Shown here piece by piece: positions 1-38,107 of a DNA stretch of 38,107 bases; the stretch's first letter is position 1, and each line of letters begins with the position of its first letter. The notes under the pieces were generated by a model that saw nothing but the letters and a program-made list of their open reading frames with translations, made no database searches and was not told the DNA's origin. Origin of the DNA: Candidatus Altimarinota bacterium (GTDB lineage: Bacteria; Patescibacteriota; Gracilibacteria; BD1-5; UBA2023); contig JAYUQR010000045.1 in NCBI GenBank assembly GCA_043756665.1, forward strand, positions 1 through 38,107, read 5' to 3'. A program made the position numbers and the translations under genes.

Positions 1-315
1 AAAAAAGAAACATGAAAAGGAAAAATGGTATTCAACTGGTTTGAATGGAAAAGAGATAGTGCAAAAGAATATAAGAAAATCCACCCTACCCAAAAACCAG
101 TAAATATCTTGAAAAAGATTATTGAGATTTTCACAGACGAATGAGATGTTATAATTGACCCCGTAGCATGATCGTGAACAACTTTACGCGCGGCGATGGA
201 ACTTAATCGGAATTCATACGGATTTGAGATAAAAAAAGAATTCTATAATTCCGCAAAAGAACACATGATAAATAAACCCGTACAAAAAGAACTACTATTA
301 TCTGATAATCTATAA
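1..315 (+). CDS. DNA methyltransferase (N6-adenine/N4-cytosine type), 3' portion; the 5' portion is at 37569..38107
   Basis: Frame 1 is open from nt 1 to TAA 313-315 when TGA=Gly. It encodes ...[52 protein letters not shown], with the HPTQKP motif and the AdoMet motif FxGSGTT. Motif glycines at 142-144, 169-171 and 175-177 are TGA codons. Confidence 0.85.
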
Positions 316-318
316 ACT

Positions 319-471
319 ATGTACAATCCTAGAGACTGTTGGCATAATTCATATTTTCTCTTTACTGAATTTGATATTCGAAAGAATCCTCTTTGTAAAC
401 TTTCGCATAGCGATTATGAAAGAATGCGTATAATTCAGTGAGAAGATCTTTTGCCTTATATAATATGATAG
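319..471 (+). CDS. hypothetical protein (50 aa)
   Basis: ATG 319 lies 4 nt after the upstream stop; stop TAG 469-471; two in-frame TGA. Product MYNPRDCWHNSYFLFTEFDIRKNPLCKLSHSDYERMRIIQGEDLLPYIIG. Confidence 0.45.
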
Positions 472-608
472 AAACAAAATGTAGAACATGTTCATCATGG
501 ATCTCATCATTCTCACCGAATAAGAGTTATTGTTCGAAGAAGTGTGAATGAGTTATTCCATATGATCCAGAGGTTGAAAAGTTAAAATCTATTTTTTGAA
601 TAAAATAA
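465..608 (+). CDS. small Cys-rich protein (47 aa), possible zinc ribbon
   Basis: ATG 465 overlaps the upstream gene by 7 nt; stop TAA 606-608. Product MIETKCRTCSSWISSFSPNKSYCSKKCEGVIPYDPEVEKLKSIFGIK (CxxC ... CxxxC). Confidence 0.45.
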
Positions 609-609
609 T

Positions 610-978
610 ATGAAATGTACTTACTGTATCGAGAAAGAAAAAGACTGGTCGGAAGATAATTCACCGATCGAGTGTGCTTTTTCTTCCTGATTATTTCATC
701 AAGATAATTGGAATTGCTGACTTATGGATAAGCTCCGTGATCAGGCAGAGAAAACTTCTGTATGGAATGATGATATGTATGCGTGAATAATGCCGTATTC
801 TATCGATAGACATGACGAAGTCTACTGAACAGTAGATGATGACTCTGGATATCTCTATCTCGAGTGGTACAAGTCGAGAGGGAAGACTGATAAATGTATC
901 GATATGGACACTATTGAACCACTCAGCCTCGATAAAGCGTATGAGATATGTCTCTTCATTAAAAAAGTAATATGATAA
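610..978 (+). CDS. hypothetical protein (122 aa) with N-terminal CxxC
   Basis: ATG 610, TAA 976-978, several in-frame TGA. Product MKCTYCIEKEKDWSEDNSPIECAFSSGLFHQDNWNCGLMDKLRDQAEK...; tightly packed between neighbours. Confidence 0.6.
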
Positions 979-1712
979 ATACGCTAATAAATGGAGATTG
1001 TCTTGAGATAATGAAAAGGATACCTGATAATAGTATTGATTTAGTGCTCACCGATCCACCCTACTGAACTACTGCTTGTAAATGGGATTCTGTAATAGAT
1101 TTTGACCTAATGTGGAAAGAACTCAAAAGAATTATAAAATCAAACGGAGCTATTGTATTATTTTGAAGTGAGCCCTTCTCCTCAGCTCTCCGTATGAGCA
1201 ACATAAAACAATATAAGCACGACTGGATATGGGAAAAAGATGCAGGAAGTAATTTTCAAACTGTTAAATATCAACCAATGAAGGAGCACGAGATAATATC
1301 AGTATTCTGAGAATGAAAGATAAATTATTTTCCAATAATGCAAGAAAGAATAGGCAGTCGAAAATGAAAAGAAACTACCACAATAGATAGTGGAAGAACA
1401 AATAGTGTATATTGAACTATGGAATGAGGGAAAAGATTATTTGTACCAGAATTGAGAAATCCAAGAAGCATACAGCGATTCAATAGAGAAAGATGAATAC
1501 ACCCCACTCAAAAACCAGTAGCACTTCTGGAATATCTTATTAGAACATATACAAACGAGTGAGAGATGGTGCTAGACTTTACAGCCTGATCTGGAACAAC
1601 AGGAGTAGCTTGTAAAAATACCAATAGAAACTATATCCTGATAGAAAAAGATCCAGAGTATTGTGAGATAATTAAAAAACGATTATCTAATACAAATTCA
1701 CCACTATTCTAA
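972..1712 (+). CDS. DNA methyltransferase (N6-adenine/N4-cytosine type, DPPY motif before AdoMet motif)
   Basis: Product MINTLINGDCLEIMKRIPDNSIDLVLTDPPYG...[41 protein letters not shown]. Motif IV DPPY is at 1053-1064, followed by TGA (Gly) at 1065-1067. Motif I has TGA at 1587-1589. Stop TAA 1710-1712. Confidence 0.9.
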
Positions 1713-1718
1713 AACAAT

Positions 1719-2090
1719 ATGATAAAAGTTCGTCTCCCTATCCACTGGACTATACTCAGTAATACTGAATATATCTGAATGAATTTCTATAGGAATTCTC
1801 ATTTTAGGATTCTTGATAAATTCAAGAAGGATTATACAGAAAAACTCTTTCCTTATCTCAAATGAAAGAAGCTCCAGACACCTATATCGATCACCTATAT
1901 TTTCCATCCATCGAGGAAATGACAGGATATGGATAACTGCATATCAGTGACATCGAAATTCTTTCAGGATGCACTTGTATGTTATGGAGTTATACCCGAT
2001 GATGATTATGATCATATCACACGTACTACCTCTATTGTAGGTGAGAAGGATAAAGAGGGCTATATAGAGGCGATTGTTGAATCTATCTAA
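1719..2090 (+). CDS. rusA: RusA-like Holliday-junction resolvase (123 aa)
   Basis: Product MIKVRLPIHWTILSNTEYIGMNFYRNSHFRIL...GQDMDNCISVTSKFFQDALVCYGVIPDDDYDHI. The D-x-DN ... DAL ... DD pattern and the size fit the RusA family. Three in-frame TGA. Confidence 0.6.
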
Positions 2091-2099
2091 TTTTACACT

Positions 2100-2264
2100 A
2101 TGAATCACTATATCCAATGACTCGAATCGGCAATAAAGACATGACCACGACCACATACTCCGTATAGTCTCAAGACTACGAGGTCATGGGATGAAGAATT
2201 CAAGAAGGTTTGTTTCGTTCAGCTAGAGCTCTATAGGATAGGAAAAGGAAGACTTAATCAATAA
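2100..2264 (+). CDS. hypothetical protein (54 aa)
   Basis: ATG 2100, TAA 2262-2264, two in-frame TGA. Product MNHYIQGLESAIKTGPRPHTPYSLKTTRSWDEEFKKVCFVQLELYRIGKGRLNQ. Confidence 0.4.
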
Positions 2265-2275
2265 TATAAATTTAT

Positions 2276-2569
2276 ATGACTTCATTGAAGCCTAATTATG
2301 ACAGAGACAATCCAGAACATACTGCGTATTTTATGAACCATAAAGTCTCTGAAAGTATGCAATATTTCAATTCTTCCTCTCTCCAGTGAGTATATAAGAA
2401 TAGAGGGAGTCGGGAGCTTGAATTTTCATGATGAAAGAAAGGAAGAAAGAGAAAACTCCCACCAGAAAAGAATAGAGGTCTCAATACTGAGGTGTGGGAA
2501 CGTGAAGAAATGACATTTTGAGATATGAAGCCACTTCCATGATTTGTTTTTTGACAAATATACGAATAA
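2276..2569 (+). CDS. hypothetical basic protein (97 aa), last gene of the rightward module
   Basis: ATG 2276, TAA 2567-2569, six in-frame TGA. Product MTSLKPNYDRDNPEHTAYFMNHKVSE...GGKKGRKRKLPPEKNRGLNTEVWEREEMTFGDMKPLPGFVFGQIYE. Confidence 0.5.
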
Positions 2570-2593
2570 TCCCCCTCACGGGGGACTTTTTTT
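2570..2593 (+). terminator. rho-independent terminator, possibly bidirectional, between the convergent gene ends
   Basis: tccccc-tcac-ggggga hairpin (2570-2585) is followed by a T-run (2587-2593) directly after the stop at 2567-2569. The minus-strand gene ends at 2650. Confidence 0.7.
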
Positions 2594-2649
2594 GTGTCTA
2601 CATAGCTTGTAGTATAGAAAACGTCGCTATGGGGCAGAAAATGGGTACA

Positions 2650-4543: not shown

Positions 4544-4852
4544 TTACAGGACTCATATCTTTTTGAGGATAAATAGAATGATTCATATAGTGAAGGATCA
4601 GATAGCTCAGAATGCGGAACGGACGATCCATTTGTGGTTCTCTTGAATTTCTTTAATGGCACTTTTATTCTCGTTGTATTCTTCTCGTGAGGCAAACTTT
4701 ACTGATGCGGAGTCGATAAAGTCTTGCATCATCATTTTCAATTCTGCGTGCTGAAAGGCGGTATTTTTTTCGAGCCTTGCCACTGCTTCATTTGTGTATT
4801 TAATCTCCTGTTTCAGCAAGGCGATTTCTGTATTATTGTTACTTGCTACCAT
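4544..4852 (-). CDS. coiled-coil protein with C-terminal hydrophobic anchor (102 aa)
   Basis: Track ORF 4607..4852 extended through four TGA to TAA 4544-4546. Product MVASNNNTEIALLKQEIKYTNEAVARLEKN...WIVRSAFGAIGSFTIGIILFILKKIGVL. Confidence 0.7.
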
Positions 4853-7262: not shown

Positions 7263-10200
7263 TTATTTTTTAGGCTTTATGATGGGCTTATTTTTGATGA
7301 TGGGTTTAGGTTTTAGAAATTCTCATAATTTTTCTTTTATAGCTTTTTCTACTATCGGTTTTATTTTACTTTCAAATATTTCTTTATTCCATTGTGCTGC
7401 TTCTTCTCTAATTTTTATATGTCATTTTGACTCAGCAACATATTGTTCAATCATTCTTGCGGTTACTTCTTGTCTATTAGTATAATATTTTCTATTATTT
7501 TTAAATGCAATGGTATTTTTGTTCATTAACTCAGTAAGCTCATTTATTGTAGTATTATCAAATAGTTTTTTGTCTAATTTATAATCTATCGCGTGTCATA
7601 GCTCGTGAGCTACTGTTGTATGTATTTTCTCTTTAATTATTTTTCATTCAGCGTCTTTCATTACTCTTCAATATGTATCTAATTTTTCAAAAGATTCAGT
7701 TCATCAGACCGATATACTTACACTATTATTTTTTGTATCTTTTCTATATAATCAGGCTATATCTTTCATTAAAAAAGGATTTTTACCATTAAGATGTACA
7801 TACACCCATCTATCCATCTCAGCAAGTTTTTTCATATCTATTCCTAATGCCTCAGAAAAGTCTTTCACACCATTTATTATATCTGATTTTTGTTCAGTAG
7901 ATATAGTTTTTCAGTCTTGGCGTTTCATTCACGCTCAAATAGAATCTATATCATCAAATACTATACGTGAGTCATCCGCACCAAATGAAGTATTCAGTCA
8001 TTTTTCATATATTTCTCGTGATGTAACTGCCTTGGAAAATGACGGATCATATTTTATTATTTCATCTGGAAATTTATATCATTTTGATATATCGTTTTTA
8101 ATAAGCTCAGTATATTCTTTTTTTGAGCTTTCTTTAAAATAATCACTTGTATCAATTTGTCGTTGCCACATATCTGTTCTTCTTTCAAAAAGAGATTTTG
8201 CCTCATTAAATGTTTTTGCACTGCTACTATTAGCTTCTATGTTTGCCCATATTTTTCTATCTTCGATTATTGTTGGAGAGTTTAATTTTTCAGCCTGTAG
8301 TCTGGTAGGCATTTTCTCTCAATATTTTTTTATTAACTCGTCTACTTGTTTTGCCATTTTTCAGAATCCTTCTGCATTTCTATTAGCTTTTTTAATTTTT
8401 ACATCTATTACTCATTGTATTCACTCTTCTGGAGTTAATTTATGGTGTGCAACTCTATCTGGTGATATTCTTTTTGCTCCTACTCTTTTTGCTTCATCTC
8501 AAACATTTATATTTTCTGGCAATGTTTCTATAATTTTATTCTCAATAACTCCACCCTCTTTCACTATATTCTTAGGAGCTGGCTTCACGATAGGAGTGTT
8601 TTTAGTCTTTTTAGGTACTATGAGAGGTTCTGAGGGAGCGGATGGTGTAGTAGGCTTTTTAGTGATCATTCCATCCTTTCAAAAGCTTTCGAAAGAAGTA
8701 TCCATAATATCCATTCCCGTCTGCTTTTTGAATTGCTTTACCATATCATTCCATGTCTTCTCTCAAAATCTTCCGTCGTTTGCTATTTTTTGGAGTTTAT
8801 CATAGATCTGCTTGTCTGTGATCTTTTCTATCACCTCTGGAGCTTGTTTCTTATTGAGAAGATCATCAAACGCGTTTTTTATTTTTCACGATTTTATATC
8901 TGATATGAATTCATCGAGAAGATCCTTTTTTACATAGCTATATTCGAGACTTCCAGAGTCTACACTTTTCTTTATTTCGGAAAGTATTGAAAGAGCCTCA
9001 CTTTGTGTGATCTTTTTTTCTGATAAGAGGTTATTAATCTTAGTTTCTATGCGAGAGTTTCATGTGCCTCAGAATTGAGCCGCTTTTGTATCACTAGCAA
9101 TACCCCTCTTTATATCATTTATTTCCTTTGATTTTGCGACTTGAGAGGTTTTTGTTTGAGCTGGCAAAAGCCTTCTCGGTCATTGTCACTCGACCATAAC
9201 CCCCCGCTTTCATGCAAGGATTTTAGATTGATTTCCTTTAGGATTAAGTGGTGTTTCAATAGTTACCTTGGATGATCATGGAATATCGGAGGGCACACTT
9301 ACCACTGTTGGGGTTACATTTTCCCGTTTAGTACGAGGAATATTACCAGTATTATTGCTATTATGTATACCATCTTTAAAAAGGTTAGTGGGTATTTTTA
9401 CTTCTGCCTGTGTGCCTCTCCCAGAAAGTGCGTTTAATCCTTTGAGGTATCATCTCTTTACTATATTGGATTGTGCGATCTGTTTTGCTATAAAGACTGA
9501 AGGATCAGCATTGAACGCAAGCCAATCAGTCAATCATAGGGGATTGTTTCCTGCTATCTTATCTTGCCATCATCCTATACCTTCCATAAGCTTATAATAG
9601 GCTTTTGTATCCATATTTATGGCTTTCAGGTTTGAGAATCCCTGTTGTTCTGCTGTCGCAAATTGCCATTTTCTCACATCATTATCTAAATTCGTGACGA
9701 ATCATTTTCTTGGTGAAGTGTCGTCGCTAAAGTATGAGAACTTATTATTCGAGTTTAAGAACCTTTTAGCCTCATTTATTTCTGACATAGAGAGACCTTG
9801 TGTCTGATACTTTTCGAGAAGATCTTTAGCTCTTAGGCTTTCTTTACTCATTCATTTACTCGACGCATTTCCGAGATTATCCCTAAGCATTGTCTCTACA
9901 GGATCAACTTGCTTTGTGATATACTTTCATGTTTCCTTATCTATTGCTTCTGTAGCAACTTCTTGAGTCGGAGCCTTGAAATTTCACTTGATACTAGCAA
10001 GTCCATCATCTGCCGACTTTCGTGAAAGTTTAAGGTTTTTTGATAAATTTTCAACTAATTTTTCTCCAGTGTCACTTATTCATCGATCATTAAGAAATTT
10101 TCAAGGGCTCACTCCAATTTCTTCGTTAAATGAGCGGATCTGCCCTGCATTCATCCTATTTATATTTGTAGAGGCTATATCTGCTCTATTTTGTAGTCAT

Positions 10201-11114
10201 TTCTGGAGTCAATCTTTGATTCAATTTCAAGCTCATTGGAGATCACGAACTATAGACTTTCCTGCACCCTCAATCCCTCCATAATATCATGCCTTTCAAT
10301 ATTTCATTGTCTTAGAGGCTACTCATCATATTATTGGAGCTACTACTTTAGACATAACTGGTCATGCTACTGCTCCAGTAACTCATCATATTGCTGCCCC
10401 TTTTCATATATCCCATAAAGTAGCCTCATTCCCTTTATTTATAATCGGTGTAGCTCAACCGAATCATGTTCCTACTACTCCCGATCGAAATGCGAGATTT
10501 CAGAGTCATTTTGCTCAGGCTAGATATCCGCCTCATAGAGGAGCTGTGAGGGCTAATTGTCAGCCAAGTTTTCTCATGTCTATTTGCTTCTGTGTGAGTG
10601 GATTTGATCCACCATCTGTCATGCCTGCTTGTGTGACATCATTTCCTATATTTTGGAGGTTCTGTCAAAGATCATTAGCTCATTTTCAGAGTCAAGGCGT
10701 TATATAATCAAGTCATTCTCCTATTGTATTTCCTACGAATCAGAGTCAATTTCATACGATAGAAGGGATTTGTTCTCATGCCCTCACTATTCCTTTTCAT
10801 AATTCCTTTGCTCATCACCAAAATCAGAGATCAGGTCATTCTTTTGCCTGCTGTTTTTTATCCTGTAGGAATTGGAATACATCCTGTGCTGGGAGTCATT
10901 TACCTTTTGAGTAATCAATAAATGCAATATCTTTTTCGTCGAATCACATTGATTTGAATTGTGAGTTTCGATCTGTCTGTATAGGCGATTGTTGTACATT
11001 TTCAGGATATGTAGATCATGATGAGTTTTTTACAGGAGCATAGGCATTCTTTGTTATAGAGTCAAAGAGGTTAAATCCTGTATTTTTTGAGAATGTTGGT
11101 ACCTCGTATGACAT
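7263..11114 (-). CDS. giant virion-associated protein (1283 aa): Gly-zipper hydrophobic region plus C-terminal HExxH zincin-like domain; candidate ejection/polyvalent-type protein
   Basis: I translated every codon from ATG 11114 to TAA 7263-7265 and found no TAA/TAG but dozens of in-frame TGA. Glycine-zipper segments (…LGGQLALTAPLGGGYLAGAKGLG…GVVGTGFGGATPII…GAAIGGVTGAVAGPVMSKVVAPIIGGV…) lie near 10261-10620. TVAHELGHAID (HExxH) is at 7593-7607 with its Gly encoded by TGA 7596-7598. The plus-strand track ORF 8239..8805 is its antisense shadow. Confidence 0.85.
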
Positions 11115-11115: not shown

Positions 11116-13965
11116 TTATTTATTGTAAAGAGACTCAAACGATGAATACATATCATTTAGGTTTGTATTCATATTTCCTTGCTGAGATTTGGTGATTCAC
11201 TTTTCCATATCGGAATTTCTATATATCTCAGAAATGTCATTTCCATTTTCATCACGTCATACTTCCTTTAATATTCAGAGTGTAGCGTTGTACCTATTTT
11301 TTCTTTTTTGATCTATAGCTGAGGCACTATCTCCTGATTGGGGAAAATATTGTTGTCTTGCATTCGCAAATTCAGGATCCGTAATCACCGCTCCTGATTC
11401 TTTACGCAGGTTTGCATTTATCCAATCTCTTTGTGCCTGTTCATACTTTTGCCTATCGTTTGTCTTCATCCAGTTAGGAGCCCATCCACTTGGGGCTAAA
11501 ATTTCTGTTGTAGCCCATGAGTTTTTATATTTATCTTCCATTGTCCTGATAGGATTTTCAGATTCTGACATACGAAGCCCGAATTTATATGAAGCCCTTG
11601 CTCATTCTGTAGTTTTTGGTGCGAGTACTACATCATATAGAGATTTCGGAGTATTAGCTCATCTATTGGAACGTACATAATTAGCAAGATCAGTATAAGA
11701 TAATCATGCCTTATTCATTGCATCTAGGTCTGATTTCGTTGGATTATTACCAATAATATCCATAAGATTCTTTTGATCCTGTGTGAATGCCTTTTGTGCT
11801 CCACTTGATGAATTAGTCAGTCCTTTCAAAAATGTCACCTGATCAGAATTCGAAAGAAGTTTTCAGTTTGATTTTATTTCTATATCGAGGTGTGCTCCTC
11901 TTCATTTCGCGAGCTGTTCGGCGGTGAGTGTTTCTCCACTTACTCCTCTCACATTTCCTGTATTGCCACGAGTTCCGACTATATCACCATAGCCGAGTAC
12001 ATCACCTTGTTTTACCCCTATATTTTCTAGGTGTGAGTATCTGATTTCATTTCCACTTTCGTCGGTCATGATAACAGAGTTTCAATATGGTTTCTTCATT
12101 CATGCCTTGTACGGCACTCAGAGCTCTCACGCTTTATCGATATATTTGACTGTCCAATTTCCACCTGCTGGCAAAGGATCTCATAGATTTCCTGCAAGAT
12201 CATAGCCTCGATTTCATTCATATGTTCCTACATTCTTTCCGAGAATATCAAGAAATGATTTACTCGATTGTATTTTTTGTTCGAGCTCTAGGGCTTTCGC
12301 CTTCTTTTCTGGATCATTTTCTATTTCGAATAAGAATTTTTCCCGAGCTGAGTCATTATTGAATTTAGCGAGTTGCATCTGCTGTGAAAAATTTCTTGTA
12401 TCTCTTTGATTTTCGACTTCATTTTGCATTTGAAATTTCTGTGCATCTGACAATTGCCCCTGTTGAAGGGATTGATATTTCTGATATGCTGGACTTGCTT
12501 GTATATTCTGCCCCATTTCAGTCAAGAACTCTGCAAGAGGTTTTCCACTCTTTTGAAACTCTGCGAGACGAGATTGTACTGTACTTGTAAATGGAATTCC
12601 GAGCTTTTTGTACTCGTTCATAATACTTTGTATGGCTGTTGCAGGATCACTCAATGCCTGCTGTGCTTGTTTACTTTCGAAGTCTGATTGGTACTGCATC
12701 ATATCTTTCTGAGCTTGTACTTGGCGTTGTTCACTTGCTATCTGACGTGACTGAGCCTGCTGATCTTTGTAGTTATCCATATTTAGCTGGAGGAGTGCTG
12801 TCGATTCTGCTTTGAGATTCGTATAAGTACCCATAGAGTTATTATATTCATCTATTGCGATCTGGTAGTCTTTGTACATTCCCTTTCTTCGGTCTGCTAC
12901 GATCTTAGCTTTAAATGAATCGGTTGTTTCTTTTCACTCGAATTCCTTGTCTACATCAGTTTCGACATTATCGTATACTGCCTTGATATTCTGATACTTA
13001 TTCTTTTTTTCTTCCACCGCTTTGCCTTGTGCCTGAACTGCCTCGTTATTCGTGAGAGCATTATATTCCTCCTGTGTCATTGTCCCATCTGCGAGGGCAT
13101 TAGCGACACTTGGATTGTTCGAGAGGATTATAGATGATTGCGTTGTTCCTATTTTTACCTCGTCTATATTTCCAGTGACAAAGGCTTTAGCTTTCTGGAG
13201 CTTTGTACTCATAGCAGGATCACTCATGAGATCATTATAGGTAGTAGTACCTTGTAGTAAGTCTCCACTATTGAGAGCTGTCGAGAGTGTCGCTGGATCC
13301 ATGAGAGAAAACCTCTTGAAAGTATTATATCGAGCATTTGCACTACGATATTCATTCGTATTTTGATTCTGGATAGGCTGTCATGCACGAATAGCCTGAA
13401 ATGTCTGATCTGCTGTCATGGCTATCGGTTGTCAGCCTGTGAATCCTGCATCGAGCATAGCCCGTTTTCCATCATCTGCCATATCATATCCGAAGGCTTT
13501 ATTATAAGCATTCCTATCTTTGAGAAGAGCGGGATTAGCTGTAGTTATCTCAGTAACATTCTTTTGTATCTCACTCTCTCTGCCTTGCGACTTATTATAG
13601 TCTATGACTGGATTTGTACTCACTTTTGTCTCACTTGGCCTTATTTCTTGAGCTACTGGAGCTACTGGAGCTTGTATTTGAGAAAGCCCTGTAGACTGAT
13701 CTATAGGTGCTTGTGTGAATTGTTCTCAGTTTACTCCCGTGACTGTCGGAGCTACTGGAGTTGGAGTGACTGGAGCTGGCGGTACGATAGGATTCGCTTG
13801 TCTTTCTGCCTGATTTTTAGCCAGTTGATCCTGATTGATCTGAGAATTTGGAGTGACTGGAGCTGGCGGAGTTATCTCACCATATGCCTGAGTTCTCGCT
13901 GTGACGGGATCAATTCCACTCTTTCTGAGTTTTATGAATTCATCTCGTGGATTAGTCGTTGCCAT
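11116..13965 (-). CDS. large Gln-rich coiled-coil protein with M23/LytM-like peptidase domain (949 aa); internal virion or tape-measure-like
   Basis: Track ORFs 13726..13965, 13432..13623, 12934..13302, 12214..12879 and 11275..11571 share one frame. All gaps translate without TAA/TAG. ATG 13965, TAA 11116-11118. The M23-like block is NRGYDLAGNLGDPLPAGGNWTV...YGNSVIMTDESGNEIRYSHLENIGVKQGDVLGYGDIVGTRGNTGN...GAHLDIEIKSNGKLL. Confidence 0.85.
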
Positions 13966-21538: not shown

Positions 21539-22408
21539 TTAAATAAAGTATGCGACTGCAACCTTAGTGAGGTTAGTAGTGAAGATATTTCCTCCATATA
21601 CAATTTCTGTAAAGACGTTCTTGAAGTTACCGTCGATACCTTCCATTGATTTGGTTCCATAATCCTCAGTTACTACATTTACACAACCCTTTTCCATCAT
21701 AATCATTTCGTTTGAGGCATTGAGTGCCGCACTATAGATGATAGGTGTGGATGAATACATTCCGAGATAACCCTCCTGAAGCATTCCATTACCCAATTCT
21801 GTATTAGTCAGAAGCTGAGCTCGAAGATATGCATCTTTGAGGCGAGAGCCAACAACACATACACGATCCTGAGATGTGTATGTTTCATCGAGTGCAACGG
21901 TTAATTGTCCGAATACTTGGACGATGGAAGAAGTGGCGATAGCGATTGGAGCACCTGAGTTGATTTTATTGGCTGCTGCAATCGATGCAATCTTATCCAC
22001 GAGGATGAGATCACGAGCATAGTTGTCCATGAGTACATCCTTAGCCTGTGCGAGATTCTTTCCGATAGCAAGCTCAAGAGGAACTTTAGAATGCCTAGAT
22101 TGAAAGTCTGTAATTTTTTCAAGGTATGGAGCATACTTTGAGAGGGTAAGAGGTTCAAGCGAAAGAGTTGTATTGGAAGGGGTGATTGATTGTCCTGGAC
22201 CTGTTCCGAGTGTCATTCCCGATGCACCTGTAATTGATAGTCAAGTGAGTACAATATTTGTCATAACAGGAACAAATACGATTGATGCACGTCCCTGTAG
22301 TTCTCCCTGATATTCAGTAGAGAGGTAAGGAGCGAATGAAGATTTCTGCTGATTGAGTCTGCGTACCTCTGATTTGAAGACATTATCGCTAAAAACTGGT
22401 GATGCCAT
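21539..22408 (-). CDS. major capsid protein (289 aa)
   Basis: Track ORF 21539..22216 extends upstream through TGA to ATG 22408; stop TAA 21539-21541. Product MASPVFSDNVFKSEVRRLNQQKSSFAPYLSTEYQGELQGRASIVFVPVMTNIVLTG...GYLGMYSSTPIIYSAALN...VAVAYFI. The composition, size and position after a scaffold-like gene fit a coat protein. Confidence 0.8.
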
Positions 22409-23374: not shown

Positions 23375-23625
23375 AGATTAGGAATATGAGTAAATAACGT
23401 GTTTTTTTGGATTATATCCTCGTATACTTTCTGTTGCCTAGCAAAGAGACTGGTTTCTTCCATCATTTTATGCGATTCTTCGCTCGTAGGATCAAAATTA
23501 GAGTTTTGCATTTGCTTTTTCATAGTTTCCATAAGAAGCTCATCTCGCATTCTCTTAATGAGAGCCCATCCTGCATGAGACATAAAATCTATGAGAAGAT
23601 TCTTATTTTGTTGTGATAATTCCAT
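23365..23625 (-). CDS. hypothetical protein (86 aa)
   Basis: ATG 23625 overlaps the portal stop (TAATG). The frame reads through TGA 23371-23373 to TAG 23365-23367. Product MELSQQNKNLLIDFMSHAGWALIKRMRDELLMETMKKQMQNSNFDPTSEESHKMMEE... Confidence 0.6.
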
Positions 23626-25472
23626 TATATCGGGAGTAAAGGATTAGAATTTTGCTGGCCTGCAATATTATTCATAGCAATATTTGCGGTTGTACCATCT
23701 GATACACCTGCATCCTGTATCTCGAATGTTCGAGTATCCTGTATAAGTTGATCAATTCGCTCTATAATCTTTCGTTTGGCTGGAGTGTTAATGGCTTGTG
23801 AATAGATCTGACGGAGAGTGAGGAGATTCTGTCATGCGATAGGTTCAGAGATTTGTATATTATTATTAAGAAGCTCGATATTGTTGTTTGCTTCCCACTC
23901 ATCGACATCAGGAGGGATGACTGTCATAGGATCGAGATCTCGTATGCCTGATTTCTCTATGAGTGTTCTCAGGAGTACATTCATGGCATATCCTGGCTTC
24001 ATATTCGGCATCAATAGGTTTGCACTTGCTATAAGCTTCTGATAATCTTGATCATCCTGTGAACGTTTTTCTTCCTGAGAGACGACATAGATATTGATTT
24101 GTGATCCAGAAAGAAACTCTTTTTTGAGGAGAGTTCTGGAGTATGCTTTACCATTATCATAGAGAGCGATATTGAGGGAGCTTTTATCTCACATATAGAG
24201 CTCATATGAGTTAAATATATCTTCCCACATCTTCTCGTATGAGTCCATGTAGTTATCTCGTATCATTCTGTGTATTCGGCTTGCCTTCTGTTCCATTATC
24301 TGGACTTCTGCTTTTGTTTGACTTCATGGAGCCGAAGATCAGAATGCTATATCCCTATTTCCGCTTGTCTCTTGTGCCATCGTATCATTAAATTTTATTG
24401 CCTCTAGCACTGCTCCACTTGATTTATTGTGAGGAAGCTCTACAAATGCCGACTCATTACCGAGCTCATCAAATTTAGCCGCATACATAGCTCAACCAGG
24501 GCTTGTCTTATCAAGCTTCTCAGCATTCAGTCCGAGTTTATAATTGATAAGGTAGTCACTTCCGAGAGCATCACGTCTCGCAGAGATATTATAGAGATTG
24601 GACAGCTCGCTCATATTCTTCTGGTACTGTATCACCTCATCATAGAGGCTAGCGCCAAAGGCAGAATTTGGAATAGGTTTTCGTCTATGGAGCTGGATAG
24701 GATACCTTATCTTCATTGGATTCAGTTTCTCGGCTTTTGTCATGGGGTCAAGCACTACATATCTCAGAAGATTCGCAAATTCAGAGTCCCATATAGTGAG
24801 ATACTTGTATCATTCAAACGAAGTGAAGTGATATTTTATCGAAATCATTTCGTCATCTGGAACATCTTGTAAGCGATTCGCACTTGCTCGTGACTGTTCT
24901 GTCCTTCTCCATTCCTCGGATACGTTGGCAATTACAGATTTACGAGCTTTTTTATCATATTTCTCATTGTCACGGACATATCAGATCGTCATTTGTTTTT
25001 CTAGTCCGATAAATCTCATTTCTGAATCACAATAATTCTTGGGATCAAGAATAAGAGAGAGAGGGTCAATATGGGCGAGGAGTGGACATACCTCATCATC
25101 ATCGAAAGCTTCAATAAATGTTGCAGAGATTCCATAGAGATTATTATCATCTATGATTTGCCTCTTGATCTTTTTCACTCCCAGCTTTCGATAGAGGTGT
25201 TTTGCCACTTTATTTCGATTCTCAGTGATCTCATCTTCGAGGACTCACTTTTCTGAGACAGTCACTATATCGAGTTCATCGGTCAAAAAAGTAGCAGTTT
25301 CTAGTTGCATATGCTTCCATAGAAGATTCTGTTTTACAAAGCCTTCCTGTGGTTCTTCGAGGATTTTTTTATCGACATTCCTTTTTCGTTCTCGTTCACC
25401 CTTAATATGGTCATATCACATCTGATACTCCTTTTGTACCTTATTCCTGAGAGCTTCAATATTTTTTACCAT
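23625..25472 (-). CDS. portal protein candidate (615 aa)
   Basis: Track ORFs 24981..25208, 24492..24755 and 23832..24014 share one frame, and all gaps translate without TAA/TAG. ATG 25472, TAA 23625-23627. The call rests on size and position, directly after the large terminase and before scaffold/capsid. Confidence 0.7.
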
Positions 25473-25527: not shown

Positions 25528-27048
25528 TTATACTTTTCTTGCGAAGCTCCACATTTGTACATCTTTTGGCTTTATCTTGTTCTTATAGCTCACTCAGAGG
25601 TATCTGAATGCGTCACTTCAGTTTGAATTTATGTCGTGCTTTGGCTTATCCCTGAATATTCCATTCTTCTCATCGTATTCCCTTCGGTATCATGCGAGTC
25701 TGGTGAGTCCGACACTTGTTGTCTCTTCGCTAAAAAAACAGTAAGGAAACATATCTCGAACTGCATTAATCCCATCAGAGATAGAGAGCTTGGGCACTAC
25801 TTCTACCTTGCCCTTCAGATACTGTCTTGCTGTTTGTATTCTTGCTACTCCCATAGAGTATTCTGTGACCTCTGCATCGTGTGGGAGATAGTGAGTGTCG
25901 TACTTCTCATATCGAGTATTCACTATACTCATCGCTATCTCTGTAAGACCATAGCCTGATCCTTCCCAGTAATCTATAAGTCTCACTTCTCTCCCGAGTA
26001 TCTGATAGAACCATATGGCAGTCTCATCTCATCATCCTGCTCATCAGAGATCCCAGTGAGTATTTATGGGGAGTCTAGGATCATATGGGAATCTTCACAC
26101 TCTATTTTGACTTCTTGTGATTCCTAGTTCCTTCTCGTAGTACGCTCACTTGATGGCAAGGTCAAATGCCTCCTTAGGATAGCTTGGATATTCTCTGAGC
26201 ATATCTTCGTGCTGTTCCTCTCTCTTCTTCTGATACCATCTCATTTTTTTCTCAGCGAATCGTATGTCTGAGTGATTCTTCCGTATCCAGGAGTCTTGTT
26301 GTACTTTTTTGAAATATTCGCGAGTCTCGCTTGTTATTACTTCTCAGGATTCTAGCTCATATTCATCATCCAGCCACCAAGCATAGAAGTGAAACTTGTA
26401 ATCCATATCAGTGAGCTCTTTCCCCATCTCTTGGAGCTCCATTGCTTTCGTACACATATCGTAATAGTTTCCTGAGTTTCCCTCTGCCGTACTTTCTATA
26501 TCCACTTCACTTGTTGGGGCTACTGTATTGAGGGCTCCTGTCTGTATTTCTCTTGCCTTCTCTGGATACTTGTTACAGATCTTCCCGTATTCTGATATAT
26601 GGAGATGCTGAAGTGTTCCCCCCCGAAAAGAGGTATCTATCGATACAGAACAATGGTTGGATTCGAATACAAGTTCTCACTTTCGATCTGTCTTTACTTT
26701 GAAGGTATCTTTCAACCACTTCGGTAGGTTATCGAATGCGAACTTTACCTTGTCCCGGAATATAAGCTCTGCACTGTCTCGATCGTCTGCAATGATACCC
26801 ATTGATTTGTAAGAGGAGAAGAGAGCTTTGTCTAGTATCATTACATCTATGAACGTAGAAAATCCCAATTGACGAGCTTTAAGGATTATATTCTTCGTAT
26901 GTCTGTTGTGATAGTAGTGAGTCTGTTGCTTGTTTGGTATGAACGGGATTTTATTCCCTTGCTTATCTTTAATCGAATAAAGCTTTCACGAAAACAATCG
27001 CCACTCCTTATCTCCCAGATATGTCTTGATTTGTTCTAATTCGGTCAT
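25528..27048 (-). CDS. terL: terminase large subunit (506 aa)
   Basis: ATG 27048, TAA 25528-25530. ATPase motifs are NIILKARQLGFSTF (Walker A-like) and TLQHLHISEYGK. Nuclease motifs are HWDLGGAGGGDETAIWFYQ and NGSDAFRYLGV. Many motif glycines are TGA, for example 25618-25620. Confidence 0.92.
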
Positions 27049-31924: not shown

Positions 31925-32620
31925 ATGGAAACAAAAAATATTTCTTCTGCAATAATAGCAGTTATGCGAGAGATTAATGGAGTAGAGAAGTCTATGACTG
32001 TATGAAGTGGAAACAACTCGTATCAATGAGTGAGCGATAAAGACGTAAAGATTCTTATTCGAGATTCGATGATAAAAAATTGACTCGCTATCTTTCCCGC
32101 AGAAATAAACGCAAAAATCCAAATAGATAGATGGGAAGAAGATGATACGTATAATAAAAATCCACCATATCCAAAAAAGTCCAAGCAATCCGTTTTTACG
32201 GAGGTCACGACAAGGTATATTATTTTACACACAAGCGGGGAATCACTCGAATTAGCTGGATATGGACAGGGCGTAGATGCCCAAGATAAATGAGCAGGAA
32301 AGGCAACGACATATGCGCTAAAAAATACTCTTCTGAATATGTTTCTTATTCCTACAGGGGTAGACACTGACAATACCCACTCTGATGATATTCCAGTACC
32401 ACAAAAATCTATTGATACACCCAATGGATGAAAAAAAGAATATCCAGTCACCAAGTGGTTGAACTTCAGAGATCTCGAAAATCTCGTAAATTCATGAATC
32501 GATACAGAGGCTCTTCTTTCGAATCATATTAAAGATAATGAATTCACTCTTTCGAACAATATGAAGAAGACTCTCCGAGCCTATTGTGATAGTGGTGAAC
32601 TTTCCGAAATCCGATCATAA
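31925..32620 (+). CDS. erf: ERF-family single-strand annealing recombinase (231 aa)
   Basis: ATG 31925, TAA 32618-32620. Product METKNISSAIIAVMREINGVEKSMTVGSGNNSYQGVSDKDVKILIRDSMIKNGLAIFP...DAQDKGAGKATTYALKNTLLNMFLIPTGVDTD matches the ERF pattern as I recall it. Confidence 0.65.
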
Positions 32621-35129: not shown

Positions 35130-35131
35130 TT

Positions 35132-35897: not shown

Positions 35898-36272
35898 ATG
35901 TACATCTTCGACCTCGATGGCACGCTTGCCGATATACGTGAGAATAGAAAACTCCCCCCATGAAAAGCAATTATTCACAATGTAGTTTTATATAGGCAAT
36001 TAGCAGAGAAATACGAGTGTATAATTGTCTCAGGGAGAGACAAAAAACAACGAAGTATGGTATTCGATTTTTTACGATGAATATTTTTTAGTGGTAGGAT
36101 AATCCTCAACGACCTCCCTTTCCCCAAGCCACCGAACCACGAATTCAAAAGAATAGTATTCCAAAATCTTCTGGATGAGTGAGAAACCATCGACTGAGTA
36201 TTTGATGACAATCCCAAGGTTGGTGATGTATGTCGAGACCTCTGAATTCCGTTTTATCTTGTTAGCCAATAA
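35898..36272 (+). CDS. HAD-superfamily phosphatase-like protein (124 aa)
   Basis: Product MYIFDLDGTLADIRENRKL... (motif I DxDGT), ...IIVSGRDKK..., ...GVFDDNPKV (acidic motif). ATG 35898, TAA 36270-36272. Confidence 0.7.
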
Positions 36273-36277
36273 TCCCT

Positions 36278-36613
36278 ATGTACCAACTCACACCACATGC
36301 CCGTGAAATCTTCAAAGTATTTGAGTGAAAGAATTGATTTAAGGTATTTGACACATCACCAGAAGGCTTTGTCCTTTGATTCTGATTGAATAAAGAAGAT
36401 GCAATAGAACGATGACTCATCGAGAAGAAAAATCCGAATCCACTTCATGAGTTATGTGAAAATAATTCTTTTATCCAGATTCCATGGATAGCGAAACATT
36501 TATGAGAAGACAAACTTGCAGAGTTTCTTGAATTCATGATCTGACAGGGGCAGAGTGAATATGGGATATTCTCAGTCGATGTGAAGAAGTTTCTAGAACG
36601 TAATTGATTATAG
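36278..36613 (+). CDS. hypothetical protein (111 aa)
   Basis: ATG 36278, TAG 36611-36613, eight in-frame TGA. Product MYQLTPHAREIFKVFEGKNGFKVFDTSPEGFVLGFGLNKEDAIERGLIEKKNPNPLHELCENNSFIQIPWIAKHLGEDKLAEFLEFMIGQ... Confidence 0.6.
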
Positions 36614-36614
36614 T

Positions 36615-36908
36615 ATGAAAAAATTATCATGACGTGCACTTTATAAAACTCTCGAAAGTGAGAAGAGGCAAATAAGTGCATGAAGGGATGCAAATTCTAT
36701 CATATATGGCAATGGTATCCGTGACAAGTATTGCCAGTATATGCTGAGGGCGAAAGCTGATCTATATAGCTGGCGACATTCTGTACGGCATAGAACACTA
36801 TGCAATGGAATACTCCATAGAAAACTCATTTATCGTCTCAAGAAAGAGCGACAAGAGAGCATAGAAAAAAGACTTATGGCAAGCATCTATGATATGTCCA
36901 ACCAGTAG
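36615..36908 (+). CDS. hypothetical basic protein (97 aa); frame choice uncertain
   Basis: ATG 36615 lies 1 nt after the upstream stop; stop TAG 36906-36908. Product MKKLSGRALYKTLESEKRQISAGRDANSIIYGNGIRDKYCQYMLRAKADLYSWRHSV... An alternative 58-aa ORF in another frame (36688..36864) also looks protein-like. Confidence 0.4.
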
Positions 36909-36982
36909 GCTTGACTCCCCGTATGTGAAACGCCTCTATATGATCCATAGAGGAATTGCTTACCACCTAGGCGGGGTCAAGC
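36909..36982 (+). other. compound stem-loop directly after a stop codon, at the start of a ~280-nt gene-poor stretch
   Basis: The outer helix pairs gcttgac(t)cccc(g) (36909-36921) with cggggtcaagc (36972-36982). An inner 7-bp hairpin is cctctat-atgatcc-atagagg (36933-36953). Confidence 0.4.
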
Positions 36983-37189
36983 TTATTGCTTGTTGCCAAG
37001 ATTCCCTTATGAAGCATTTGTAGATAATCGCCTAGATTTATAAATGAAGATCGAGCTTCTGGTACTCCAGTACATAGCGCTACTTTGGCTCGATCGGCTG
37101 CAAGGGAGAAAGAAGATTTGCTCCACAAGCCTGAGTTTTCTTTTTCCTTTGTCTTCATGGTGTTTTATAAAAATTTTACACTACTATAT

Positions 37190-37348
37190 ATGTATTCACT
37201 TACTCCCCTAAATTCTGAACATGAAGAAATATACTATCTTCTCAGATCCGCTTGTTCAGATGATAAGAAAGTAAAGCTTATCATGCAAAAAATAGTACAA
37301 TACGCACTTTGAGGCTATGAAATAGGGCTTTTAGATTCTAAAAAATAA
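37190..37348 (+). CDS. hypothetical protein (52 aa)
   Basis: ATG 37190 sits in the usual ...ctatatATG context. The frame of track ORF 37085..37312 is read through TGA to TAA 37346-37348. Product MYSLTPLNSEHEEIYYLLRSACSDDKKVKLIMQKIVQYALGGYEIGLLDSKK. Confidence 0.4.
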
Positions 37349-37353
37349 TAACT

Positions 37354-37569
37354 ATGTACAAAAAATACCTCATCACATACAAGCCTGAAAAGCATTTGCA
37401 GTATAACTCTTTTACAATCTGTATCGAGTGAAAAGATGTGAAAGAGATTGAAGAGAAAAAGAAAATTGCTCTTCATAATTTTAAGACATACCCGATCGAA
37501 GCGAAAAGCTGGAAATGAGAAGAACTCTACTGATTCTGAATTGTTCCTATTTCTATAAATTTAACATAA
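37354..37569 (+). CDS. hypothetical protein (71 aa)
   Basis: ATG 37354; TAA 37567-37569 overlaps the next ATG (TAATG). Product MYKKYLITYKPEKHLQYNSFTICIEGKDVKEIEEKKKIALHNFKTYPIEAKSWKGEELYGFGIVPISINLT. Confidence 0.5.
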
Positions 37570-38107
37570 TGCAAATCCCAACTATAGATACTCTAGTTAA
37601 TGTCGAAAATCGACCTACTAAAAAACTCCGTACAGAATTATATAATGATCATTTCCAAAACTTCAAAAGGTATAATATACCGAAAGCACAGCTTATCATT
37701 GCGGATATTCCATATAATCTAGGAAATAACGCATACGCTAGTAGTCCGCAATGGTATAATGAGTGAGATAATGAAAAAGGGGAAAGTAAACTAGCAAACA
37801 AGTCATTTTTTGATACAGATAATGATTTTAGAATTGCGGAATTTTTTCATTTTTGTGCTCGTTTACTAAAACCTGAGCCAAAAGAAAAGGGAATGGCACC
37901 TGCGATGATTATTTTTTGCGCATTTGAACAAATGGCAATGGTGGTAGAATTTGGAAAAAAGCATGGTTTTGAAAATTCATACCCATTATTTTTTATTAAA
38001 AATTTCTCCTGACAAGTTCTAAAAGCAAATATGAAGATAGTATGAGCCACAGAACATGCAGTAGTATTATACAGAGATAAGCTCCCAAAGTTTAATAATG
38101 GGAAAAA
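37569..38107 (+). CDS. DNA methyltransferase, 5' portion (motif IV DIPY); continues at 1..315
   Basis: ATG 37569; the frame is open to the window end with three in-frame TGA (37765-37767, 38010-38012, 38043-38045). Product MQIPTIDTLVNVENRPTKKLRTELYNDHFQNFKRYNIPKAQLIIADIPYNLGNNAYASSPQWYNEGDNEKG... The AdoMet-binding half is missing here and is found at the window start. Confidence 0.85.

What the first reader, a model, noticed from the sequence alone, without database searches (positions are those of the whole stretch)
1..38107. The whole genome is decoded with TGA = glycine (translation table 25)
Seen in sequence: under the standard code, nearly every long gene is chopped into short ORFs. Accepting only TAA/TAG as stops gives contiguous ORFs of 500-1357 codons, packed end to end with TAATG-type junctions. 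The in-frame TGA codons fall on invariant glycines of well-known motifs. These include methyltransferase motif I A-G-S-G-TT (169-171, 175-177, 1587-1589), DPPY-G (1065-1067), zincin HEL-G-H (7596-7598) and the terminase N-G-SDAFRY motif (25618-25620). TGG is used separately for Trp, so this is not the TGA=Trp code. Established knowledge: TGA=Gly is only known from Gracilibacteria and Absconditabacteria (SR1). Inference: this is a phage of such a host. Complete recoded phages of these lineages are poorly described.
Basis: partly seen in the sequence, partly recalled or inferred. Interest (0 to 1): 0.8.

Follow-up and report, generated by a model that had tools for sequence, protein, structure and literature searches.

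The report
Complete phage genome reading TGA as glycine
The window is a complete, roughly 38-kb phage genome in which the usual stop codon TGA encodes glycine, as in Gracilibacteria and Absconditabacteria; this is a well-documented new example of a kind of phage already described in 2023, not a new phenomenon.

Summary
With TGA as a stop, non-overlapping ORFs cover 64% of the window and average 86 aa. With TGA as sense they cover 93% and average 200 aa, with a longest ORF of 1357 aa; the longest in 200 shuffles was 285 aa.

TGA means glycine, not tryptophan:
- In 111 normally composed methyltransferase homologues, the 10 TGA columns are 85% Gly and the window's own GGN columns 86.5% Gly. Trp is not among the six commonest residues at the TGA columns.
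- The TGG columns are 100% Trp.
- Across eight related contigs, window TGA pairs with GGN 75 times and with TGA 56 times. TGG is not among the eight commonest classes (each under 4 of 189).

There is no tRNA or other Rfam RNA. TGA occurs in 45 of 59 genes, in early genes as well as late ones, so the host must decode it. An independent assembly bridges the window's ends, so the genome is complete.

Code-25 phages of these hosts were already reported (Liu et al., mBio 2023), so this is a new member of a known kind. Two additions: the window reads CGA/CGG as Arg, which favours a Gracilibacteria-type host over Absconditabacteria. Public databases mistranslate this clade with code 4.

The parts
1..38107 (.). 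Complete genome of a tailed phage written in genetic code 25. The ends join. The window carries about 4 redundant A's at the junction: concatenating its ends gives A11, whereas an independent assembly shows A7.
   Evidence: Logan contig L081 (SRR23617209) matches window 37114-38107 and then window 1-2820 contiguously, at 99.97-100% identity. Coding density is 93% with TGA as sense against 64% under code 11.
972..1712 (+). N6/N4 DNA methyltransferase of 246 aa with 10 in-frame TGA codons, including motif IV DPPY-TGA (1065-1067) and motif I F-x-TGA-S-G-T-T (1587-1589).
   Evidence: Pfam PF01555, E = 2e-31, profile 1-221 of 221. PDB RsrI and DpnA have Gly at the motif I column. TGA columns are 84.7% Gly in 111 normally composed homologues, and TGG columns are 100% Trp.
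25..315 (+). C-terminal part of a second N6/N4 methyltransferase, with TGA at 169-171 and 175-177 in motif I (A-G-S-G-TT).
   Evidence: PF01555, E = 1.6e-20, profile 151-221. Fusing it in silico to 37569-38107 (as if the run were A6) gives one match over profile 2-221.
37569..38107 (+). N-terminal part of the second methyltransferase. It runs across the genome junction to a TAG at window 57-59 and is out of frame with the 25-315 part at an A7 run.
25528..27048 (-). Large terminase subunit of 506 aa with 12 TGA codons, including 25618-25620.
   Evidence: PHROG phrog_2, phrog_5989, phrog_26724 and phrog_2472. It is 42% identical to annotated terminases of cultured Pseudomonas, Klebsiella and Erwinia phages. 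Invariant Gly columns swap GGN and TGA among relatives.
23625..25472 (-). Portal protein of 615 aa with 9 TGA codons.
   Evidence: Pfam PF23899 SU10_portal, E = 2.3e-8, residues 130-513.
21539..22408 (-). Putative major capsid protein, assigned by position only. Only 1 of its 22 Gly codons is TGA.
   Evidence: It lies between the portal/scaffold-like genes and the adaptor. There is no family hit and no similarity to the Phage_capsid_4 protein of the relative L165. TGA share.
20531..21235 (-). Head-tail adaptor.
   Evidence: Pfam PF24175 SU10_adaptor, E = 9.3e-7.
13952..18025 (-). 1357-aa virion or tail-fibre-like protein with 34 TGA codons.
   Evidence: Longest ORF; no family hit. The function is inferred from size and position.
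11116..13965 (-). 949-aa tail-associated protein with an M23 peptidase domain and 18 TGA codons.
   Evidence: Pfam PF01551, E = 5.7e-9, residues 586-702. PDB zoocin A and ShyA alignments put Gly or Ala at the TGA positions.
7263..11114 (-). 1283-aa protein with a Gly-rich N-terminal region. It has 73 TGA codons (58% of its Gly codons) and an HEL-TGA-H motif at 7596-7598.
   Evidence: No Pfam or PDB zincin match.
4544..4852 (-). Holin.
   Evidence: PHROG phrog_689, E = 5e-7.
1719..2090 (+). RusA-like Holliday junction resolvase.
   Evidence: PHROG phrog_1682, E = 4.6e-24.
31925..32620 (+). ERF single-strand annealing protein with 6 TGA codons.
   Evidence: Pfam PF04404, E = 1.1e-8, residues 7-155 across four TGA codons.
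35898..36272 (+). Polynucleotide-kinase/phosphatase-like protein.
   Evidence: PHROG phrog_415, E = 7.5e-15.

Best explanation
The window is the complete genome, closing on itself, of a tailed dsDNA phage of about 38.1 kb. It has about 59 genes.

**Layout.** Structural and lysis genes lie on the minus strand from about 30.0 to 2.6 kb. Replication, recombination and methylase genes lie on the plus strand from about 31.4 kb through the junction to about 2.6 kb.

**Code.** The genome is written in genetic code 25. TGA is a glycine codon and supplies 36% of all Gly codons. TAA and, less often, TAG are the only stops. TGG is Trp, and CGA/CGG are Arg.

**How it is decoded (inferred).** The phage carries no tRNA, release factor or synthetase. 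It uses TGA from its earliest genes onward. Translation therefore has to rely on a host that already supplies tRNA-Gly(UCA) and does not terminate at UGA. Only Gracilibacteria and Absconditabacteria are known to do this.

**Which host (inferred).** The window uses CGA heavily as arginine. Absconditabacteria are predicted to read CGA/CGG as tryptophan. A Gracilibacteria-type host is therefore more likely than an Absconditabacterium.

**Shown versus inferred.** Shown: the code, the phage gene content and the closure of the genome. Inferred: host identity and dependence on host tRNA.
For: **Codon meaning.**
- TGA columns are 84.7% Gly in 111 normally composed MTase homologues, the same as the window's own GGN columns (86.5%). 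TGG columns are 100% Trp.
- In columns at least 80% conserved in normally composed homologues, TGA aligns with Gly 7 of 7, TGG with Trp 9 of 9, CGA with Arg 6 of 6 and CGG with Arg 1 of 1.
- In 37 standard-composition terminases, invariant Gly columns carry GGN or TGA interchangeably in the window and its recoded relatives. Invariant Trp columns carry TGG.
- Across 8 related contigs, window TGA (n = 189) pairs with GGN 75 times and TGA 56 times. TGG is not among the 8 commonest classes. Window TGG pairs with TGG 69 of 104 times and with TGA only twice. Window CGA pairs with Arg codons 62 of 116 times, and Trp is not among its commonest partners.
- Read as Gly, TGA gives 7.7% Gly and 1.0% Trp. 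Read as Trp, it gives 3.8% Trp and 4.9% Gly.

**ORFs and phage genes.**

**No decoding machinery of its own.**
- No tRNA, tmRNA or Rfam family was found.
- TGA is present in 45 of 59 genes. It makes up 59% of Gly codons in plus-strand early genes and 36% in structural genes.

**Completeness.** An independent assembly bridges the ends.

**Literature.**
- Code-25 phages linked to these hosts by CRISPR spacers: PMC10746230.
- CGA/CGG read as Trp in Absconditabacteria, with CGA below 37 per 10,000 codons: PMC8629427. The window has 67 CGA in 7579 codons, about 88 per 10,000.
Against: - There is no direct host link. No CRISPR spacer match was made, and no prophage copy in a Gracilibacteria or Absconditabacteria genome was found.
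- The three recoded relatives in GTDB genomes sit on short contigs binned into MAGs labelled Peribacteria, Neisseriaceae and Cytophagales. This is uninformative or reflects mis-binning.
- The argument for Gracilibacteria over Absconditabacteria rests on a computational prediction (Codetta) for six Absconditabacteria species. An SR1 lineage that keeps CGA = Arg cannot be excluded.
- The major capsid protein is assigned by position only.
- Nobody has shown by proteomics that this phage's TGA is read as Gly.
Confidence: 0.85

Rival explanations
1. TGA encodes tryptophan (code 4). This would apply to phages of Mycoplasmatales or Entomoplasmatales, and to the TGA-recoded gut phages of standard-code hosts.
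For: Public databases translate this very contig and its relatives with W at TGA (P0001 and P0264, contig length 38107). A naive look at database homologues therefore shows many W at the terminase TGA columns.
Against: - Those W are an artefact. 76 of the 120 best terminase clusters have 3.2-8.2% W and 0.4-5.3% G. W% and G% correlate at r = -0.92.
- In their DNA the 'W' at Gly columns is TGA.
- Homologues of normal composition have Gly at these columns. Trp is not among the commonest residues.
- Genuine Trp columns in the window always use TGG.
- Trp would reach an abnormal 3.8%.
Confidence: 0.01
2. The phage infects a standard-code bacterium and switches the code itself during infection, as proposed for Lak, crAss-like and other recoded gut phages.
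For: Phages with a code different from their host's are well documented (Borges et al., cited in PMC10746230). The large terminase is shared at about 42% identity with phages of Proteobacteria.
Against: - There is no suppressor tRNA, release factor or aminoacyl-tRNA synthetase (gene content).
- TGA is not confined to late genes. It is more frequent in the early and replication module (59% of Gly codons) than in the structural module (36%).
- No TGA = Gly suppressor system is known outside code-25 bacteria.
- Only the terminase is shared with proteobacterial phages. The other structural genes are not.
Confidence: 0.04
3. The host is an Absconditabacterium (SR1) rather than a Gracilibacterium.
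For: In Liu et al. 2023 most clearly code-25 phages were linked to Absconditabacteria (44 of 50) and few to Gracilibacteria (4 of 38). Relatives in the same terminase clade (L167, L168) use CGA/CGG at invariant Trp columns, the predicted Absconditabacteria code.
Against: - The window uses CGA as a common Arg codon, about 88 per 10,000. It aligns to conserved Arg 6 of 6 and pairs with Arg codons in relatives 62 of 116 times. Trp is not among its commonest partners.
- In a host that reads CGA as Trp, dozens of Arg positions would be mistranslated.
- Absconditabacteria have fewer than 37 CGA per 10,000 codons (PMC8629427).
Confidence: 0.25
4. The element is not a free phage but a prophage, plasmid or chromosomal fragment of a code-25 bacterium.
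For: All Gracilibacteria and Absconditabacteria prophages reported are densely TGA-coded. ERF, RusA and methylases are typical of temperate phages.
Against: - An independent assembly from another run joins the ends with no flanking bacterial genes.
- No integrase, and no bacterial housekeeping gene, was found.
- Gene content is a complete phage set at 93% density.
Confidence: 0.1

Closest known systems
Code-25 phages and prophages of Absconditabacteria and Gracilibacteria (Liu, Jaffe, Chen, Bor and Banfield, mBio 2023, PMC10746230)
   Same: Dense in-frame TGA. [quoted passage not shown] Almost no intact genes under code 11. The host's alternative code is shared.
   Different: - This genome is not tied to a host by spacers here.
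- It is shown to close on itself.
- The amino-acid meaning of TGA is demonstrated column by column, not inferred from coding density.
- CGA/CGG usage is examined, which that paper does not do.
- The 'phages' collection of deposited GenBank phage records holds no nucleotide or capsid match, and its closest terminases are about 42% identical.
Stop-codon-recoded phages of standard-code hosts (TAG = Gln code 15, TGA = Trp code 4; Lak, crAss-like and others; Borges et al. 2022 preprint 10.1101/2021.08.26.457843; Peters et al. 2022, PMC9523058)
   Same: A canonical stop codon is used as sense throughout long phage genes. Standard gene callers fragment the genome.
   Different: - Here TGA = Gly, not Trp.
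- There is no suppressor tRNA, release factor or synthetase.
- Recoding is not enriched in late genes.
- The code matches the presumed host rather than differing from it.
NCBI translation table 25 (Candidate Division SR1 and Gracilibacteria code; Campbell et al. 2013 and Rinke et al. 2013, as cited in PMC8629427)
   Same: TGA = Gly, TAA/TAG are stops, TGG = Trp.
   Different: The table was defined for bacteria. The phage supplies none of the decoding machinery.
Absconditabacteria extended code (TGA = Gly plus CGA/CGG = Trp; Shulgina and Eddy 2021, PMC8629427)
   Same: Relatives of this phage (L167, L168) show CGA/CGG at invariant Trp columns.
   Different: The window itself keeps CGA/CGG = Arg.
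Phage SU10 (an Escherichia podovirus, from my own knowledge), the source of Pfam SU10_portal and SU10_adaptor
   Same: The portal and adaptor match these Pfam families just above threshold.
   Different: The matches are weak (33 and 30 bits). There is no capsid or tail similarity, and the host and code differ. This is a resemblance only, not membership.

Membership tests
Genetic code 25 (TGA = Gly) | In-frame TGA aligns with glycine in homologues from standard-code organisms | tested here: met
   84.7% Gly at 10 MTase TGA columns in 111 homologues. TGA aligns with Gly in 7 of 7 conserved columns. TGA and GGN interchange at invariant Gly columns. TGA pairs with GGN 75 times, and TGG is not among the commonest partners.
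Genetic code 25 (TGA = Gly) | TGG remains the Trp codon and is not interchangeable with TGA | tested here: met
   TGG columns are 100% Trp in MTase homologues. TGG aligns with Trp 9 of 9. TGG pairs with TGA only 2 of 104 times.
Genetic code 25 (TGA = Gly) | TAA and TAG are the only stops, and genes are intact only when TGA is read through | tested here: met
   47 TAA and 12 TAG stops. Coverage is 93% against 64%, and mean ORF length 200 against 86 aa.
Genetic code 25 (TGA = Gly) | Decoding machinery: tRNA-Gly(UCA) present and release factor 2 absent | not testable with these tools
   The phage has no tRNA or release factor. The host genome is unknown.
Genetic code 4 (TGA = Trp) | In-frame TGA aligns with tryptophan | tested here: not met
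   Trp is not among the commonest residues at TGA columns of normally composed homologues. The W seen in database relatives is TGA mistranslated.
Absconditabacteria extended code (CGA/CGG = Trp) | CGA/CGG align with conserved Trp and are rare | tested here: not met
   In the window CGA aligns with Arg 6 of 6 and CGG with Arg 1 of 1. CGA pairs with Arg codons 62 of 116 times, and Trp is not among its commonest partners. CGA is about 88 per 10,000 codons. The feature is met in relatives L167 and L168.
Tailed dsDNA phage (Caudoviricetes) | Large terminase and portal | tested here: met
   phrog_2 and phrog_5989 terminase. 42% identity to annotated terminases of cultured phages. PF23899 portal.
Tailed dsDNA phage (Caudoviricetes) | HK97-fold major capsid protein | tested here: inconclusive
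   The positional candidate 21539-22408 has no family hit and no similarity to the relative's Phage_capsid_4 protein. No structure was predicted.
Self-recoding phages of standard-code hosts (Borges-type) | Phage-encoded suppressor tRNA and/or release factor, with recoded codon enriched in late genes | tested here: not met
   No tRNA. TGA share is higher in early genes (59%) than in structural genes (36%).

The most novel reading that the evidence does not exclude
This genome belongs to a large, unclassified clade of phages defined by its terminase. At least 76 terminase clusters at 90% identity in public data show the code-4 mistranslation signature. Members of the clade follow the exact code variant of their CPR hosts. 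The window uses TGA = Gly with CGA/CGG = Arg, which points to a Gracilibacteria-type host. That class of clearly code-25 phage was rare in the only survey (4 of 38). Sister phages L167 and L168 additionally read CGA/CGG as Trp. They would be the first phages seen to track the Absconditabacteria sense-codon reassignment. The nearest standard-code sisters, L165 and L166 (GC 50-57%), show where the code boundary lies within a single terminase lineage.
Probability: 0.5. Interest if true: 0.6.

Novelty: new member of a known kind. Interest (0 to 1): 0.4.

Why it matters
**A clean reference example.** It is a complete code-25 phage genome in which the amino-acid meaning of TGA is demonstrated residue by residue, not inferred from coding density.

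**A database problem.** Public protein collections hold this contig and dozens of relatives either as fragments or translated with code 4. Every TGA-encoded glycine is then written as tryptophan, in up to about 95% of a protein's glycines. This corrupts homology searches, profiles and structure predictions for the whole clade.

**A host marker.** The CGA/CGG reading gives a simple sequence-only way to separate Gracilibacteria-type phages from Absconditabacteria-type phages. It also suggests that phages follow their hosts through sense-codon reassignments as well as stop-codon ones.

None of this overturns current understanding.

Tried and rejected
- **Identity of the source record.**
  - The MTase protein P0001 returned only a 5.5-kb Logan contig. 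That contig turned out to be useful for closing the genome.
  - P0264 and a TGA-free ORF were not on record.
  - Accession strings were not found in the paper library.
- **Host from genomes.** The single GTDB scan with a terminase alignment returned mostly standard-code proteobacterial prophages at about 42% identity. Only three short recoded contigs appeared, in MAGs of inconsistent taxonomy. tblastn ranking penalises recoded hits, so absence of Gracilibacteria or Absconditabacteria prophages cannot be concluded.
- **IMG/VR.** The terminase alignment gave only standard-code relatives. The capsid candidate gave nothing.
- **GenBank phages.** There was no nucleotide match and no capsid match. 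Terminase identity was about 42%.
- **Standard-code panels for other structural proteins.** The fetched loci share only the terminase with the window.
- **Putative endolysin (2650-3387).** The search gave 14 unnamed hits and no host clue.
- **'Zincin' claim.** Pfam and PDB searches were negative.
- **Cluster names.** None were informative.
- **Supplementary host tables of Liu et al.** These are not held.
- **Orthologue of the split methylase.** None was found in the relatives that were fetched.
- **Not run.** Structure prediction and the representative-library search were judged unnecessary for the question.

Full report
**1. The observation**

The window is 38,107 bp at 38% GC.

Treating TGA as a stop breaks the sequence up. 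The longest stop-to-stop ORF is 294 aa. Greedy non-overlapping ORFs cover 64% of the window and average 86 aa.

Treating only TAA and TAG as stops gives ORFs of 1357, 1297, 949, 615 and 509 aa. Coverage rises to 93% and the mean to 200 aa. Making TAG sense instead does not help. In 200 shuffles the longest TGA-sense ORF averaged 172 aa and never exceeded 285.

A codon-usage-scored gene call gives 59 genes:
- Minus-strand genes run from about 30.05 kb down to 2.65 kb.
- Plus-strand genes run from about 31.4 kb through the end of the window to about 2.6 kb. This agrees with the sign of the AT skew.
- 47 genes end in TAA and 12 in TAG.
- Same-strand neighbours often overlap by one base or abut.

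Pfam matches run across TGA codons rather than stopping at them:
- N6_N4_Mtase covers its whole profile (1-221 of 221) across 10 TGA codons.
- ERF, SU10_portal, SU10_adaptor and Peptidase_M23 also span TGA codons.

**2. What TGA means**

I translated TGA as X so that searches were unbiased.

*Methyltransferase 972-1712.* I took its 120 best database homologues.
- In the 111 with normal composition, the ten TGA columns are 84.7% Gly, 5.5% Ala and 3.1% Ser. Trp is not among the six commonest residues.
- The window's own GGN columns are 86.5% Gly.
- Its four TGG columns are 100% Trp.
- In solved structures, the motif I TGA aligns with the Gly of F-x-G-S-G in RsrI and DpnA.

*Conserved columns.* In columns at least 80% conserved among normally composed homologues of the methylase and terminase, the results are:

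| Window codon | Aligned residue | Columns |
|---|---|---|
| TGA | Gly | 7 of 7 |
| TGG | Trp | 9 of 9 |
| CGA | Arg | 6 of 6 |
| CGG | Arg | 1 of 1 |

All other codons with data take their standard meaning.

*Codon-level comparison.* I fetched the DNA of recoded relatives (L082, L163, L164, L001-L003) and standard-code relatives (L165, L166).
- At terminase columns that are invariant Gly in 37 standard-composition homologues, the window and its recoded relatives carry GGN or TGA interchangeably. At invariant Trp columns they carry TGG.
- Over all alignable genes, window TGA (n = 189) pairs with GGN 75 times, TGA 56 times and Ala 12 times. TGG is not among the eight commonest classes, so it occurs fewer than 4 times.
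- Window TGG (n = 104) pairs with TGG 69 times, Tyr 12, Phe 8 and TGA only twice.

*Composition.* Read as Gly, TGA gives the proteome 7.7% Gly and 1.0% Trp. Read as Trp, it gives 3.8% Trp and 4.9% Gly.

TGA = Gly is therefore established as firmly as sequence analysis allows.

**3. A trap in the databases**

The window's own proteins in the public collection (P0001 and P0264, contig length 38,107) carry W at every TGA. They were called with code 4.
- Of the 120 best terminase clusters, 76 show the same signature: W at 3.2-8.2% and G at 0.4-5.3%. W% and G% correlate at r = -0.92.
- Many cluster members are 66-134 aa fragments from code-11 calling.
- A naive tabulation therefore shows a misleading mix of W and G at terminase TGA columns. 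The DNA shows that those W are TGA.

**4. What the element is**

Recognisable genes:
- Large terminase: phrog_2, and 42% identical to annotated terminases of cultured Pseudomonas, Klebsiella and Erwinia phages.
- SU10-like portal and adaptor.
- A 949-aa protein with an M23 peptidase domain.
- A minor-tail-like protein.
- A holin.
- A RusA resolvase.
- An ERF annealing protein.
- A PNK-like phosphatase.
- Two N6/N4 DNA methylases.

No integrase, tRNA, tmRNA or other Rfam RNA was found. The relatives that were fetched also have no tRNA.

An independent assembly closes the genome. Logan contig L081 from SRR23617209 matches window 37114-38107 and then window 1-2820 without interruption, so the genome is complete. 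The true junction has A7. Concatenating the window's ends gives A11.

GenBank phages hold no nucleotide or capsid match, and terminase identity is about 42%. Only the terminase is shared with proteobacterial prophages.

**5. How it most likely works**

TGA occurs in 45 of 59 genes. It makes up 59% of Gly codons in the plus-strand early/replication module and 36% in the structural module. The phage has no decoding machinery of its own, so every stage of infection needs a cell that already reads UGA as Gly. This is an inference, but a strong one.

It differs from the model for recoded phages of standard-code hosts. Those carry suppressor tRNAs and release factors and concentrate recoding in late genes (discussion in PMC10746230).

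TGA use varies strongly between genes (chi-square p = 9e-13). It is 1 of 22 Gly codons in the putative capsid gene and 73 of 126 in the 1283-aa protein. This looks like ordinary codon-usage selection.

**6. Which host**

Only Gracilibacteria and Absconditabacteria are known to read TGA as Gly (PMC8629427). That study also predicts the following for Absconditabacteria:
- They read CGA and CGG as Trp.
- They have fewer than 37 CGA per 10,000 codons.
- Gracilibacteria vary for CGG.

The window differs:
- It has 67 CGA in 7579 codons, about 88 per 10,000. These align with conserved Arg and with Arg synonyms in relatives, and Trp is not among their commonest partners.
- I therefore favour a Gracilibacteria-type host, with a probability of roughly 0.6.
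- No spacer or prophage evidence was obtained.
- The three recoded relatives in GTDB MAGs are short contigs in bins labelled Peribacteria, Neisseriaceae and Cytophagales, which tells us nothing reliable.

**7. Comparison with what is known**

Liu et al. 2023 (PMC10746230) linked phages to these hosts by CRISPR spacers. Among phages over 20 kb, 44 of 50 Absconditabacteria phages and 4 of 38 Gracilibacteria phages were clearly code 25. All prophages were code 25 as well.

The finding is therefore a new member of a known kind.

Other details were overstated:
- The Gly after DPPY is Asn in RsrI and DpnA.
- HEL-G-H is a bare HEXXH match with no zincin hit.
- The terminase N-G-S column is Gly in most homologues, not all.

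**8. Verdict**

| Question | Verdict |
|---|---|
| Observation | Confirmed |
| Interpretation | Supported, with the caveats above |
| Novelty | New member of a known kind |
| Interest | Moderate (0.4) |

The value lies in three things: a clean complete reference genome, the database mistranslation problem, and CGA/CGG as a host discriminator. The side observation that some relatives appear to read CGA/CGG as Trp is listed under things noticed in passing.

Noticed in passing
L167:357-1889 (terminase P0197) and L168:1992-3485 (P0225); also proteins P0195, P0160 and P0034: Some relatives in the same terminase clade carry CGA or CGG at columns where Trp is invariant. All 7 CGA/CGG codons of the L167 terminase align with window TGG; that gene has only 1 TGG and encodes Arg almost entirely with AGA/AGG. 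This fits the CGA/CGG = Trp reassignment predicted for Absconditabacteria. I found no paper in the searched library reporting it for phages.
   Followed up: partly
window 37569-38107 plus 1-315 (genome junction): A second N6/N4 methylase is split into two overlapping reading frames at an A-run at the genome junction. The run is A7 in independent contig L081, and A11 if the window's ends are simply joined. With A6 the two parts fuse into one protein that matches the whole Pfam profile (2-221 of 221). It could be a pseudogene, phase variation, slippage or an assembly error. No orthologue was found in the relatives that were fetched.
   Followed up: partly
window 34456-34725 and 35182-35391 (+): Two paralogous small ORFs (89 and 69 aa) consist almost entirely of Gly-X dipeptide repeats (GS, GD, GF, GY). 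They are built from a 6-nt tandem repeat (GTTCTG)n of 37.5 and 27.5 copies. Each has the same roughly 60-nt upstream sequence and the same start and end. By eye, Gly appears to be GGT throughout, and neither ORF has an in-frame TGA, in a genome where 36% of Gly codons are TGA. PHROGs gave no match for the 89-aa ORF, the only one of the two searched; function unknown.
   Followed up: partly
window-wide; proteins P0001, P0264, P0121-P0197: Public protein collections hold this contig and at least 76 related terminase clusters translated with code 4, so Gly appears as Trp, with up to 8.2% W and 0.4% G. Others are held as 66-134 aa fragments from code-11 calling.
   Followed up: yes
window 21539-22408 versus 7263-11114 (-): TGA share of Gly codons differs greatly between genes. 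It is 1 of 22 in the putative capsid gene and 73 of 126 in the 1283-aa Gly-rich protein. Overall it is 59% in early genes and 36% in structural genes (chi-square p = 9e-13). The pattern is consistent with TGA being avoided in the most highly expressed gene.
   Followed up: partly
L165 and L166 (terminases P0178 and P0149): The nearest standard-code relatives of the terminase (51-62% identity) come from contigs with 50-57% GC and essentially no in-frame TGA. The recoded relatives have 26-40% GC. The change of code within this terminase lineage goes with a large GC shift.
   Followed up: partly
window 11116-13965 (-), residues about 586-702: In the alignment to zoocin A, the first zinc-ligand position of the M23 H-x-x-x-D motif appears as Asn in this protein (E-G-N-R-G-Y-D). 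The domain may be catalytically altered, or the alignment may be offset.
   Followed up: no
window 34727-34740, 35391-35405 and 34445-34460: Several plus-strand genes start in the recurring context TTTTATATATATG with no obvious Shine-Dalgarno sequence. This could be a shared start or promoter signal.
   Followed up: no
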